DNA from: Eledone cirrhosa
Taxonomy: Eukaryota
Direction of reading: 5' to 3'
Length of the DNA stretch: 64,000 nucleotides
Assembly (NCBI GenBank): GCA_964016885.1
Contig: CAXHJY010001646.1
Coordinates: 1 to 64,000, forward strand
A program made the translations under genes and the position numbers. Positions 20,996-53,573 of this stretch are shown here, piece after piece. The notes below the pieces were generated by a model, which did no database searches, was not told the origin of the DNA, and worked only from the letters and a program-made list of their open reading frames with translations. How positions within the stretch are numbered: the first letter of the stretch is position 1; every line of letters begins with the position of its first letter.

Positions 20996-21064
20996 TATTT
21001 ATTTTATTATATATATTTCAAGGGTACCAAAATTTTGGTACGCTCTCATCAGATAAAATAAATA
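20996..21064 (-). ncRNA. Type I hammerhead ribozyme motif, minimal stem III
   Basis: Minus strand: 12-bp stem I UAUUUAUUUUAU/AUAAAAUAAAUA, CUGAUGA, stem II GAG-C-GUACCAAAAUUUUGGUAC-C-CUU, GAAA, UAUAUA, UA cleavage site. Confidence 0.85.
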
Positions 21065-21164
21065 AATATATATATACATACTGATCAAGACGATCCGAAA
21101 CCTTATTCGTTTACCAAGTAAGGTGAACCAAGGAAACAATATTTCCTTTGATCTTTCCATTGCT

Positions 21165-21315
21165 GATACTATCTGCTGGTTGCAATTCCAGGTAGAAGAA
21201 GCAACATGAAATAAAGTGTTTTGCTGAAGGACATAACACATCACCCAGTCCAGGAATTGAACTCACAACCTCATGATAGTGAATCCAAATCTCTAACCAC
21301 CAAGCCACATGCCAT
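21165..21315 (-). mobile_element. tRNA-derived CORE-like SINE (family B)
   Basis: Reverse complement of the family B head (GGCATGTGGCTTGGTGGTTAGAG...GAGTTCAATTCC). Confidence 0.7.
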
Positions 21316-22717
21316 CATAACATGCAAAAACTGTTAAATTTAATTCACATTTATCATTTATTTTTTGGTGTTAAAATTTTTGTTGCACTGCTTGTGACCT
21401 GGTCACTGACACAGCTTCAGTTTATTGTTTTCATGTAGTTTAACACTTTAGCATTTAAACCGACCGTATCTGGCCAGAATTCTCTCACCTCTTTCTGTTC
21501 AAACTGGCTGTAACTGGCCACTCATACTACTGTTAAGGTATTGTTCTCAAAATAAATAACATCAAAATCTCATTCGATATTATGCGAGGTAATTATGTAT
21601 GATAAAGGCATAGCCACAAAAAATACAATATATATATATATAAATGGTAAAGGGTTAAGTCTTAAAAGCCCGGAACAAATGATAGTACAAGCCACATGTT
21701 ACATGTAGGTAGCAGGAGGACATGGTAGATCATGGAGGAGGCTATTGTATGTAACATGGAGGATTGACATTAGATTTTATTAGAGGTATTATGTAGCCTA
21801 TAGTGAAAACATTAAACAGAGCAGAGAGACCTGATGTCTCACACAGCATGATAGGCTCTGTGACGGCTACAGTCCAAAGAAGAAAGAAAAAAGAAGAAAA
21901 AAGAAGAAAAAGAAAGAAGAAAAAGAAGAAAAAGAAAAAGAAGAAGAAAAAGAAAGAGAAAAAGAAGAAGAAGAAACAGAAGAGGAAGGAGAAGAAGACG
22001 ACGACGACTAGGTAGAATAGGAAGGAGACATTTGATAAAAGGAAAATAAATTAGGGAAGTAAGACAAAAAACAAAGAAAAACTATAGGAAACAAAAGAAA
22101 GGATTTCCTCGAGAGAGAGAGAGAGAGAGAGAGAGAGAGAGAGAGAGAGAGAGTGAGTGTGCGAGAGAGAGAGAGGGGAGAAAGGGACTGTTGCTATTTT
22201 ATTTAAAGTCTTGTAATAATTACCAGTTTCCAGAAATAGAAACAATATTCTTTTGCAAACCCTCAACAATAATAATAATTTGTAACGACAATAACAACAA
22301 CAACAATGGAAAAATTGTTTATTTTTCGCTGAAAGTCTCCAGAAATCATTAGGGTGGGTGTGGGGGATGTGTGTGGTGATGGGGGTGGGGAATGTGTGTG
22401 GCGGGGGGGGGGGGGTAATGTGGTGATGGGTGGTGGGGTGGTTGTGTGTGTGTGTGGTGGGGGTGATGTGTGTGTGTGTGTGCGGTGGGGGGTGATGTGT
22501 GTGTGTGTGTGTGTGGTGGGGTGATGTGTGTGTCAGTGTGTTTGTTATGGTGATGTGTATATGTATGTGTTGGGCTGTGTGTGGTAGGGTATGTATGTGT
22601 TGGGCTGTGTGTGGTAGGGTATGTATGTGTGGTGGGGGTGATGGTTTCATGCCCCACCCTGTTCGCTGAAAGGAAAGGTGGGGTGGTGTCTTCCAAAAGA
22701 AGTCTTTTTTTCAAGTG

Positions 22718-22762
22718 CCCCCCCCCCCCCCCCCCCCCCCCCCCCCCCCCCCCCCCCCCCCC
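22718..22762. repeat. C45 homopolymer (G45 on the gene-sense strand)
   Basis: Direct count. Length may be affected by sequencing error. Confidence 0.85.
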
Positions 22763-23089
22763 ATTACAAAGCCAAGGGAAGTGCATGTTGTATATTTCTG
22801 GTACTTTTTATATTTTAGGAAGTCTGCTAAGTAACAAAATCACAGCGATCAGATTGTGTGTGTGTGTGTGTGTGTATATATATATATACACACACACACA
22901 CACATATACACATACATACACACATACATATATAAACACACACACACACACACATAAACACACACACACACACAAACATACACACACACATATATATATG
23001 TATATATATATATATATATATATATATACATATATATATATATATATATACATATATATATATACATACACACATATCTCTCTATCTAT

Positions 23090-23512
23090 CTAGGGCGGGT
23101 GAAATTCCCGAGATCCATGGACGAGTTCTCCAGCGGTCTCTGTCCCTCATCAACGCTGCCATGTCCTGCGTCTCCAACAGACCAGTGTCTGTCCTTAGGG
23201 CATCAACATACGTTAACCTTGGTCTTCCTCTTCCAGTGTGTCCATGCAGGAGCTCCCAAAGGAGCACTGAGTGCAGTGTCATCTCTGGATGTTGGTGAGC
23301 ATGTCCAGCTAACCCCAGTCTCCTCTGTGTCACTTTTGAGCTGACTTTTGGGAGGCTCCCATGCAGCTCTGAGTTTTTCATCCTCAGTGTATACTGATTA
23401 ATGTTCAGAGCTATCCTCAGCATTCTCGTGTAGCACCCATCCACCATCTGAGTGAGTTTCTTGGTCAATGTCCAAGTCTCAGACCCGTACAGCAGCACAG
23501 ACTCCACTACAG
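23090..23512 (-). mobile_element. RTE-like LINE fragment (divergent subfamily), C-terminal RT/thumb region
   Basis: ORF ESVLLYGSETWTLT...YTRMLR...RRLGLAGH...[11 protein letters not shown], with typical RTE C-terminal motifs. Confidence 0.8.
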
Positions 23513-51335: not shown

Positions 51336-52023
51336 GCAATCAGACTATTGATAACACTTTAACCCTAAAAATTGTAGTACTAAGTCTAATATTCATCTAA
51401 ATGATAATAATAGAAATGAACCAAAGGTTGATAGAAGAAATAGAAGATGAAAATATATCTGATATAATCCTCCTATGGAATCTAAGTATTGTCTGCTATA
51501 CCTAAGTTATTTTTTGATATAATACACAAGAATTTCTAGCCTGAGTACAGATAATCTATTTCCTACCAATACAAATTTCCTTTCTTTCTTTCTCTAGAAT
51601 GGTCAATGATCTTACACAGATATCATTTTTTTTTTTTTACAATAGGAAATTACGAAATTACGACTACATCTTGAAAAGATCTGGTATTAACTAACCAATT
51701 TTTAGGACTAAACTCTCTGAAAATGGTCTTTCCGATTTGAATGTTTGAAATTTGACTCTCAGTATATATATATATATATGCCCTTCCTAATGAAGTTAGT
51801 GTTAGGAAGGACATCTAGCTGTAGAAATCAAGCCAAAATCAGTTCCCGTATGAGCAAGATATGGTCACCTGAACTGGCATTGCCCATAACAGAGCAACTC
51901 TTCGTCTAACCCATGCTAGTGTGGAAGAATGGACATAAAATGGTGATGATGACTATATACACACACATATATATATATTGGCCGATAATATTGTATTGGC
52001 CGATAATACTTCTTGTTGTTTTA

Positions 52024-52068
52024 ATTGCCCTGATGAGTCCTTAATAGGACGAAACATTGTTGGCTAAT
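52024..52068 (+). ncRNA. Type I hammerhead ribozyme motif, minimal stem III
   Basis: AUUGCC-CUGAUGA-GUCCU UAAU AGGAC-GAAA-C AUU G-UU-GGC(U)AAU, with the canonical G10.1-C11.1 pair. Confidence 0.8.
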
Positions 52069-52260
52069 AAAGACTTTTGATGTATTGAAGGCTTCTTTGT
52101 TTTACTTTCATAATATATATATATATATATATAAGCAAAAGGGATATTTAAATATGTTGGTAATTCAACAAATATATATGTTTATAACTGATTCGAAGCA
52201 CTCGACAGGTTTTCTGGAGTATAATATCAATGATATTAATATTTATATCATTGATATATA

Positions 52261-52588
52261 TATATATTGAAAGGATAACAAGGACGATTGGTTACTCCTT
52301 CATTACATTTATTGGTAGGTCACCCGCGGTTCGCCACTGATCAGCTCAAGATTTGATCTGTATCGCTCTTACCCGACTCAATAATCGGCAGCTCGACGGA
52401 CCCTTTAAAATGGTATAATAAAAATTTTTCTTATACCATTTTAAAGGGTCCGTCGAGATGCCGATTATTGAGTCGGGTAAGATCGATACAGATCAAATCT
52501 TGAGCTGATCAGTGGCGAACCGCGGGTGACCTACCAATAAATGTAATGAAGGAGTAACCAATCGTCCTTGTTATCCTTTCAATATATA
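52261..52588. repeat. Near-perfect 328-bp spacerless palindrome
   Basis: Centre TGGTATAATAAAAA|TTTTTCTTATACCA. One arm is homologous to 26590-26715. Confidence 0.92.
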
Positions 52589-53515
52589 CTCTGTCTAGCT
52601 CTACACCTCAACACAGAAGTGAACCTAAACATCGAGTGCTCACCCGGGTGAACCTGCAGTAACTCCTAGTTACACTCCCTAGATTATATACACACACACA
52701 CACACACACACACACACACAACCACCGCTTTAAAGAAAAATATTAAATAAAGTAGTCATATAGTTTCAGGCATAGAAATTGCCAGGATGGTCATGATTGG
52801 AATATTTTTGATCTTAGTTCTATTCAAAGGAGGCTGGACTGGGGCTATAAAATAACTAATTTAGACTAAGTTGCCTCTGTTTATACAGCAGATCTACTAA
52901 TGAATCTATTTCATTAACACTGACAGCCAGCATCTTTCAAGAAACTAAAACAACATTGACACTATTTCCACCCCCAGGTTTATGTTGATATGAAACTAGG
53001 GACCTACTTTCAACCTCTTCAGCTAAGAAATTAGGGACCTAGTTTCAGCATCTTCAACTACAGAATTAGGGACCAAGTAGAAGGTATGGTGTCAGTCAGA
53101 CACTCCAACCATTCCATACCCATTAGGTAGAAGGTATGGTCCCAGTCAGACCTACCACGACACTCCAACCATGCCATACCCACCAGGTATTGTGTCAATC
53201 AATCATGAGACTCACCTTAGACAGACACTCTTTATAATTAGGCTTTAATATTATTTTTGGTCAATATTTCTCAGGTGTTGAACAGACTAATTACCTGTTA
53301 ATTAGTCTATATACACACACATATATACACATACATATATTTATGCATTTGAAGGTCCATGTTTGTATGTGTAAGCTTTTACATACCAATTTGTTTGAGT
53401 ATGCGTTTATATATATATATATATATATATATATATATATATATATATGTCTGTCCCAAGGCTCTGATACCATCAATACTATAAACACAGAACTGGCATA
53501 TCTAAGAACTGACTA

Positions 53516-53573
53516 ACTGCCTGATGAGGTCATAGCCATTCAATGGCTATCATCGAAATATATATATAGCAGT
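53516..53573 (+). ncRNA. Type I hammerhead ribozyme motif, minimal palindromic stem III
   Basis: ACUGC-CUGAUGA-GGU-C-AUAGCCAU UCA AUGGCUAU-C-AUC-GAAA-UAUAUAUA-UA-GCAGU. Lies between two (TA)n tracts. Confidence 0.85.

What the first reader, a model, noticed from the sequence alone, without database searches (positions are those of the whole stretch)
20996..53573. Covarying stem II signature (3 bp, C-C mismatch, extended hairpin) shared by four divergent hammerheads
Seen: stem II is GAG-C-GUACCA../..UGGUAC-C-CUU at 21.0 kb, GGA-C-GUACUG../CAGUAC-C-UCU at 37.2/37.4 kb, AGG-C-AUA../..UAU-C-CCU at 48.1/48.3 kb and GGU-C-AUAGCCAU/AUGGCUAU-C-AUC at 53.5 kb. The paired bases differ but pairing is kept, the C-C mismatch sits at the same position, and stem III is always UAURUA-type. 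Inference: selection has acted on RNA structure, and the C-C internal loop may make a tertiary contact with stem I or bind protein. This may define a distinct HHR subtype.
Basis: partly seen in the sequence, partly recalled or inferred. Interest (0 to 1): 0.8.

Follow-up and report, generated by a model that had tools for sequence, protein, structure and literature searches.

The report
Penelope hammerheads keeping one unpaired cytosine
These are hammerhead-type RNA motifs at the tail end of a known group of jumping genes, present in over 100,000 copies in this animal genome, and families whose proteins are under half identical all keep one cytosine unpaired, which likely acts as a weak point and protein handle that controls when the RNA would cut itself.

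Summary
Confirmed, with corrections. The window holds six copies (four insertions, three lineages) of a type I hammerhead. They lie about 50 nt from the 3' end of Hydra-type Penelope-like retroelements inserted in (TA)n. Genome G000 has about 116,000 pattern matches (about 1,000 expected by chance). Stems I-III covary in 25 family representatives. The fixed feature is not strictly C-C: the 5' C (position 10.4) is invariant (25 of 25), and its partner is C, U (about 20,000 copies) or A (about 2,000). No amplified family was seen with G there (376 scattered copies; one old family unresolved). None of 25 published Hydra hammerheads and none of 56 published Penelope hammerheads has C-C there. The mismatch costs a predicted 6 kcal/mol, so it likely acts as a weak point and recognition base in a protein-assisted ribozyme. 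Added here: AATAAA follows the cleavage site in 22 of 25 families (3.1 expected). Cleavage is untested. The scan noted this family before on other DNA of this genome (e1-8670794). New variant of a known kind.

The parts
20999..21061 (-). Type I hammerhead, family F1b (GAG/CUU); C10.4 at 21042, C11.4 at 21023, predicted cleavage after A 21008; part of a 5'-truncated fragment of about 120 nt
37197..37265 (-). Hammerhead, family F2a (GGA/UCU), left arm of an inverted insertion; C10.4 at 37246, C11.4 at 37221
37410..37478 (+). Hammerhead, family F2a, right arm; C10.4 at 37429, C11.4 at 37454, predicted cleavage after A 37469; AATAAA starts at 37469
37060..37525 (.). Whole 5'-truncated, fold-back Penelope-like insertion between (TA)n runs; a tail of about 100 nt (the element's own 5' end) lies on the left arm only
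   Evidence: 77% to ORF-bearing L038, 85% to L088
48068..48135 (-). Hammerhead, family F1a (AGG/CCU), left arm; C10.4 at 48116, C11.4 at 48092
48282..48349 (+). Hammerhead, family F1a, right arm; C10.4 at 48301, C11.4 at 48325, predicted cleavage after A 48340; AATAAA at 48345
47940..48397 (.). Whole fold-back insertion between (TA)n runs with a tail at 47940-48020; 98-99% identical to the ends of ORF-bearing element L034
53512..53577 (+). Hammerhead, family F3a (GGU/AUC); C10.4 at 53531, C11.4 at 53551; 10-nt stem III palindrome; predicted cleavage after A 53568; AATAAA at 53575
53449..53619 (+). 5'-truncated single-arm insertion between (TA)n runs, 93% identical to L094

Best explanation
These are type I hammerhead motifs near the 3' end of Hydra-type Penelope-like retroelements, and the feature their families conserve is an unpaired C at the fourth step of helix II, which likely serves as both a weak point and a recognition base that keeps the ribozyme off until a partner, most likely the element's own RT-endonuclease protein, binds. 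Shown: the motif, its place in the element, covariation of stems I-III, invariance of C10.4 and no amplified family with G opposite it, a palindromic stem III, and AATAAA just 3' of the cleavage site. Predicted: the mismatch costs about 6 kcal/mol and leaves the 3-bp core-proximal helix marginal, and stem III would form only between two copies (tandem units or two RNAs). Inferred: most transcripts stay uncut; those that read through into the next unit's 5' end serve as template, which explains the intact ribozyme and the tail in new copies. Also inferred: protein binding at the unpaired C licenses cleavage at a later step, cutting the upstream RNA off from its poly(A) signal and giving unit-length RNA.
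For: ORFs upstream of the motif have the Hydra hallmarks (PMC8557442 section 11). Families with C-C, C-A and C-U carry endonucleases only 39-49% identical (whole ORF of the C-U family 46%). C10.4 shows 0 changes on a rough tree against 2-6 at the eight neighbouring 5'-strand positions, although it sits in a CpG in 8 of 25 representatives. Its partner changed three times (A, A, U), never to G. C-G occurs in 376 of 81,217 matches, spread over many families. A fixed base on one side and a free base on the other is what a base read singly would show; a mere weak spot would tolerate any mismatch. Median predicted gain from pairing it is -5.8 kcal/mol. Precedent: the anole Poseidon hammerhead cleaves only with its element's protein, and uncut RNA is the insertion substrate (PMC11167929 parts 1-2 of 4). 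The tail after the ribozyme equals the sequence just 5' of the ORF (L083, L084), so templates had an intact or re-ligated ribozyme.
Against: No cleavage, binding or expression data. Contigs laid from four runs gave only short low-identity matches. The 25 representatives were hand-picked from pattern hits, some from a search that fixed both Cs; the complementary searches offset this only in part. The tree for change counts rests on 74 columns, and position 10.3 changed only twice, so zero changes at 10.4 is suggestive (about 0.007 against the mean, 0.14 against the slowest neighbour), not proof. C is also the commonest base at 10.4 in published Hydra hammerheads (15 of 25, as C-G), so part of the invariance is inherited. 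One old copy (L312) has C-G there, and its family state is unresolved. The protein partner is inferred by analogy with a different clade.
Confidence: 0.45

Rival explanations
1. RNA tertiary contact: the 1x1 loop docks on stem I or on the A-rich AAUAAA strand and speeds cleavage at low Mg2+.
For: The loop sits near the height where loops 1 and 2 meet in natural hammerheads. An internal loop in domain II does this in CChMVd(-), and a C:A opposition closes loop 2 in Schistosoma (PMC2632901 passages). An A-rich hexamer is present in 22 of 25 families.
Against: No invariant or covarying partner in stem I (best: A1.6 19 of 25, U1.7 16 of 25). AATAAA sits at offsets 0-13, too variable for a fixed contact. 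The known motif needs a 3' A in loop 2, whereas here the 3' base is the variable one.
Confidence: 0.22
3. Frozen accident: one G-to-C change in the ancestor of this lineage, carried along by descent without function.
For: All families share one origin, and published relatives mostly have C-G here. Copy-level decay at the two Cs (about 6%) looks like neutral decay of dead copies.
Against: Every neighbouring pair has turned over with compensation while proteins diverged to about 45% identity. The 3' base changed three times without restoring a pair.
Confidence: 0.07
4. DNA-level constraint: C10.4 belongs to a promoter or target motif, since in tandem copies this stretch lies about 90-110 nt upstream of the next unit's 5' end.
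For: The position fits an upstream promoter in head-to-tail arrays; Penelope pLTRs carry promoters (PMC6765202 passage).
Against: The bases on both sides of the C vary freely as long as they pair, so no linear motif remains. It would not explain the exclusion of G 15-60 nt away.
Confidence: 0.06

Closest known systems
Hammerheads of Hydra-clade Penelope-like elements (Craig et al. 2021, PMC8557442; section 11, passages, and supplement part 2 with File S2 read; includes Hydra-1_Obim)
   Same: Type I hammerhead near the 3' end; no extra base after A9 in several; U-U or weak 10.1-11.1 pair; AUA/GUA-type triplets; (TA)n targets; RT with DKT; C-terminal endonuclease with CxCX5C linker and no CCHH.
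   Different: 0 of 25 published families have C-C at the fourth step (24 Watson-Crick, 15 of them C-G; 1 loop; read by eye). Published stem II is 3-8 bp, here 3 bp + mismatch + 4-20 bp. Published stem III is mostly 4 bp with a 1-2 nt loop, here a perfect 8-nt palindrome. The 3' UTR here is 1.1-1.65 kb, so elements exceed the '<3 kb' described.
Minimal hammerheads of metazoan PLEs (Cervera and de la Pena 2014, PMC4209133; parts 1-2 of 4 and supplement file 2 parts 1-2 read; supplement file 1 not available)
   Same: Type I, long helix II, short helix I, palindromic stem III read as dimer-forming, thousands of truncated copies, opposite-strand pairs 100-700 bp apart, many covarying families per genome.
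   Different: No bulged base between 9 and 10.1, and G10.1-C11.1 in only 5 of 25 here. Among 56 published representatives none has C-C at the fourth pair; single examples have C-A (S. purpuratus 1) or U-U (C. sinensis 2), and the parts read do not comment on them (by eye).
Protein-assisted hammerhead of the anole Poseidon element PAc (Frangieh et al. 2024, PMC11167929; parts 1-2 of 4 read)
   Same: PLE hammerhead, tail from internal start of reverse transcription, AT-rich targets, uncut RNA as template.
   Different: Different clade; there the ORF starts inside stem II, here the ribozyme lies over 1 kb 3' of the ORF; no conserved mismatch reported in the parts read.
Extended natural hammerheads with loop-loop contacts (CChMVd, Schistosoma; PMC2632901 passages; PMC3088659 passages)
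   Same: Same catalytic core; internal loop in domain II has precedent (CChMVd minus); U10.1-U11.1 has precedent.
   Different: They conserve a 3' A of loop 2 and a U/pyrimidine in loop 1; here the 5' C is conserved and no loop 1 motif is.

Membership tests
Hammerhead ribozyme, type I | Core CUGANGA ... GAAA with NUH triplet | tested here: met
   Invariant columns in A2; triplet AUA; these bases were also the search pattern
Hammerhead ribozyme, type I | Three helices around the core, supported by covariation | tested here: met
   16 of 21 pairs with two-sided changes, 84% of cells paired, slid controls 28-51%; RNAalifold recovers helix II only
Hammerhead ribozyme, type I | Self-cleavage | not testable with these tools
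   No raw RNA reads available; contigs uninformative
Hammerhead ribozyme, type I | Match to an Rfam hammerhead model at gathering score | tested here: not met
   0 hits in the window
Minimal PLE hammerhead (Cervera 2014) | Very short palindromic stem III | tested here: met
   8-nt palindromes, 100% of cells paired, A-U to G-C and U-A to C-G/A-U swaps
Minimal PLE hammerhead (Cervera 2014) | Extra base between 9 and 10.1, and G10.1-C11.1 | tested here: not met
   No extra base; 10.1-11.1 is G-U 8, A-U 6, G-C 5, U-U 5, A-A 1 of 25
Hydra-clade PLE (Craig 2021) | Single ORF, RT then C-terminal GIY-YIG-type endonuclease | tested here: met
   ORFs of about 740-810 aa in L083, L084, L260; Pfam gave no hit for three such proteins, so the call rests on motifs
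Hydra-clade PLE (Craig 2021) | RWK-like motif, DKT, CxCX5C linker, no CCHH, CxxC and CxH near the C-terminus | tested here: met
   RWR, SDKTNNLY, CNCRDRSKC, CDLC, CRH in L084; compared by eye with Hydra-1_Obim
Hydra-clade PLE (Craig 2021) | Insertion in (TA)n, inverted truncated arms, tail | tested here: met
Hydra-clade PLE (Craig 2021) | Generally short (<3 kb) | tested here: not met
   ORF 2.2-2.4 kb plus 3' UTR 1.1-1.65 kb; a descriptive trait, not a diagnostic one
Hydra-clade PLE (Craig 2021) | Placement in an RT tree with reference PLE clades | not tested
Extended hammerhead with loop 1-loop 2 contact | [quoted passage not shown] | tested here: not met
   No invariant stem I base; loop has 5' C and variable 3' base

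The most novel reading that the evidence does not exclude
The hammerhead is a protein-gated switch that sorts the element's RNA into three fates: the RT-endonuclease reads the flipped-out C10.4, and folding of stem I hides, or cleavage removes, the AAUAAA signal next to the cleavage site, choosing between polyadenylated mRNA, read-through template and unit-length or circular RNA. That would give Penelope hammerheads a defined regulatory job.
Probability: 0.15. Interest if true: 0.75.

Novelty: new variant of a known kind. Interest (0 to 1): 0.45.

Why it matters
The job of Penelope hammerheads is open: they cut poorly in vitro, one needs its protein, and cutting is not needed for insertion in vitro (PMC4209133, PMC11167929). 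This lineage offers more than ten covarying families with one invariant, non-catalytic base, a natural allele series opposite it (C, U, A, not G) and intact ORFs. It points to a single nucleotide to mutate when asking how a retroelement protein activates its ribozyme. The poly(A) signal beside the cleavage site suggests a link between ribozyme folding and 3'-end processing. The system itself (Hydra-clade element with hammerhead) is known.

Tried and rejected
Relatives outside G000: pattern scans gave 2 stretches in viral contigs and 17 in metagenome contigs. None forms both stems or lies near a related ORF, so all were taken as chance. A protein scan of metagenomes found nothing. Whether other species keep the C is therefore untested. 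Expression: 24 runs were listed, RNA ones at shares of 0.04-0.07; four laid gave only about 40-nt low-identity pieces, no evidence either way. Alternative fold in which the 3' strand of helix II pairs with the core (seen in the minimum-energy folds of the 53.5 kb copy and F9a): does not covary across families, rejected as a general switch. Slipped pairing of C10.4 with G12: fails in F3 and F6 (alignment). Many non-C matches are artefacts of a second CUGAUGA/CUGAGGA inside loop 2 of F2 subfamilies. Three apparent non-C copies of a long-stem family proved to be mutants; two other copies have C10.4. Endonuclease tree: two of 14 rows (unl_L248, out_L268) were out of frame through my coordinates and are disregarded; L209's fragment belongs to another inserted family; L220's link to F6 is uncertain; the tree leaves the order among families open. 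No ORF could be tied to F9, nor to F4, F5, F7, F10. No hammerhead was found behind three more distant Hydra ORFs (L266-L268). The 619-aa ORF at 49260-51119 is a tandem repeat, not an RT. Lunse et al. 2016 on dimeric PLE hammerheads is not held and was not seen; it could contain such variants. Paper searches for 'hammerhead' + 'C-C mismatch' + 'stem II' and 'hammerhead' + 'AATAAA' + 'Penelope' gave 0; 'hammerhead ribozyme' + 'octopus' gave 4 listed, only Craig 2021 relevant. The covariance model R1 finds the six window copies at 66-73 bits (four are training rows, two their inverted twins) and nothing else above 21 bits. R-scape was not available.
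Full report
Observation. The four stem II sequences stand at the stated places. A descriptor CUGANGA-NNN-C-N8-35-C-NNN-GAAAUAURUAUA matches six times in the window and never in 200 block shuffles. Each copy also has a 5-8 bp stem I and an 8-nt palindromic stem III (10 nt at 53.5 kb) followed by A, so each is a type I hammerhead with an AUA triplet. Rfam scores none at gathering level. The 37 kb and 48 kb pairs are inverted arms of single insertions between (TA)n runs, each with a one-sided tail. 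The 21 and 48 kb copies share about 80% of their 3' flank. The window therefore shows three lineages.

Genome-wide counts. In G000 (3.0 Gb) the AUAURUAU group gives 81,217 matches: C..C 71,756, non-C..C 4,211, C..non-C 4,804, neither 446 (reversed-pattern controls 3, 15, 58, 82). About 40 of the 100 listed C..non-C matches are one amplified C-A family, and 4 more are a second one (by eye). C opposite G occurs 376 times, spread over many families, with no amplified variant among the 100 listed. A search without constraint on either C and with other stem III palindromes gave 33,485 more (control 601). Of the 100 listed, 99 have C at 10.4; 62 are a C-U family with stem III AUGCGCAU and 35 are C-C families mostly with AUGAUCAU and U-U at 10.1 (by eye). 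Non-C at 10.4 in this group is about 1,100 (control 97; slightly narrower pattern). Longer stems add 2,088 (control 243), again with C10.4 in the recognisable families. Lists show only the first 100 places, so family sizes are extrapolated.

What carries them. Copies with long 5' parts hold an ORF of about 740-810 aa ending 1.1-1.65 kb upstream of the ribozyme. It has RWR, DKT, YRDD, a CxCX5C linker, no CCHH, and CxxC and CxH motifs. These match the description of the Hydra clade of Penelope-like elements (PMC8557442 section 11) and, by eye, the Hydra-1_Obim protein in its supplement. Pfam did not recognise three of these proteins. The 48 kb insertion is 98-99% identical to the ends of ORF-bearing L034. 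Endonuclease domains of families F1a, F1b, F2, F3b and F8 are 39-49% identical (two out-of-frame rows disregarded). The tail that follows the 3' end is the sequence just upstream of the ORF, so new copies come from read-through RNA with an intact or re-ligated ribozyme. This matches the internal-initiation model for the anole element (PMC11167929).

Covariation. I aligned 25 natural copies, hand-picked one per subfamily from loci held at that point. For the named structure, 84.1% of cells pair (shuffles 63.9%, slid registers 28-51%), 16 of 21 pairs change on both sides, and the score is 0.652 against 0.271 (the shuffle test ignores relatedness). Pairs 10.2 and 10.3 are 25 of 25 paired; 10.4-11.4 is 0 of 25. 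RNAalifold independently leaves this position open. Outside the searched core and the stem III ends, C10.4 is the only invariant column. On a rough tree it has 0 changes against 2-6 at eight neighbours, while 11.4 has 3 (C 21, A 2, U 2). No stem I column is invariant.

Comparison. File S2 of PMC8557442 lists 25 Hydra families: none has C-C at the fourth step, 24 are Watson-Crick (15 C-G) and one is loop (by eye). Of 56 metazoan PLE hammerheads in the supplement of PMC4209133 none has C-C; one has C-A and one U-U there (by eye). Other hammerhead-like sites in this window (28461, 52030, 57136) have C-G at that step with short loops. The simplest history is a C-G pair whose G was lost in the ancestor of this lineage, with the C kept unpaired since. 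One old copy (L312) has C-G and its family is unresolved.

Mechanism. Closing the pair in silico gains a median 5.8 kcal/mol and raises the proximal pairs from under 0.5 probability in 13 of 25 sequences to above 0.9 in 22 of 25, so the mismatch is a predicted weak point. A weak point alone would not need C on one side. The asymmetry suggests that the base is read, and the lack of a conserved RNA partner points to protein. The anole hammerhead cleaves only with its element's protein. I therefore favour a protein-gated, dimer-dependent ribozyme (0.45) over an RNA tertiary contact (0.22), a pure brake (0.2), accident (0.07) or a DNA motif (0.06). None of this is shown by experiment.

Poly(A) signal. 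AATAAA lies within 26 nt of the cleavage nucleotide in 22 of 25 representatives (3.1 expected from shuffles), at offsets 0-13. Two of the others have ATTAAA or AGTAAA and one has an insertion. U-rich sequence follows, and the element ends about 50-65 nt after the site. In 25 later copies, mostly old and decayed, 16 have AATAAA or ATTAAA (five chance rows dropped; 8 of the 16 belong to families already counted). Eight of the 56 published motifs show AAUAAA in the short flank printed (by eye). In F1, F2 and F8 the hexamer overlaps the 3' strand of stem I, so folding could mask it. That it works as a poly(A) signal is inferred.

Prior notes. After this analysis, the scan's index returned a note on another piece of this genome with the same family, about 100,000 copies, an unpaired cytosine and a brake reading (e1-8670794). 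It agrees but is not independent evidence. No note held the poly(A)-signal words.

Verdict. A real, selected structural feature of a lineage-specific variant of the known Hydra-clade Penelope hammerhead. Interest 0.45.

Noticed in passing
L083:1552-3801, L084:3013-5259, L260:1168-3588: Intact-looking Hydra-clade ORFs; the protein search's first look gave 74,689 candidates, so this clade is very abundant here, far beyond the few families published.
   Followed up: partly
   Followed up: no
window 770-806 (-), 823-859 (+), 20887-20920 (+), 28461-28497 (+), 52030-52068 (+), 57136-57172 (-), 59578-59612 (-): Other hammerhead-like motifs with short stem II and different stem III (e.g. ACAATTGT); they lack the mismatch design and serve as an internal contrast.
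   Followed up: partly
L089, L090, L043 (family F2 subfamilies): Loop 2 contains a second CUGAUGA/CUGAGGA, a decoy copy of the core's 5' half inside the hairpin.
   Followed up: no
L217:450-499 and 5104-5153 (G000:C1:153246949, 153251603, 153256656): Identical F10 hammerheads repeated at about 4.7-5 kb spacing with no Hydra ORF hit between them; a tandem array or segmental repeat.
   Followed up: no
F9 family, e.g. L236, L248, L271-L278: Roughly 11,000 copies (extrapolated from 35 of 100 listed) with no linked ORF in the loci fetched; possibly non-autonomous.
   Followed up: partly
stem III of F1-F6, F10: Stem III plus the cleavage base reads (AU)n, the same as the (TA)n target, and gains TA units in some copies (53.5 kb). 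Families with AUGCGCAU or AUGAUCAU also insert in (TA)n, so this is not needed for targeting.
   Followed up: partly
window 23696-24925 (+): 409-aa fragment of a non-LTR (LINE-type) reverse transcriptase with a PHD-like finger, unrelated to the hammerheads.
   Followed up: no
window about 9000-18400 and 49260-51119: A 9-kb G-rich satellite with 9/18-nt period and a tandem repeat of about 24-nt units giving a long open frame.
   Followed up: no
L139, L142, L148 (metagenome contigs): Chance pattern hits that hold a different hammerhead-like core on the opposite strand.
   Followed up: no
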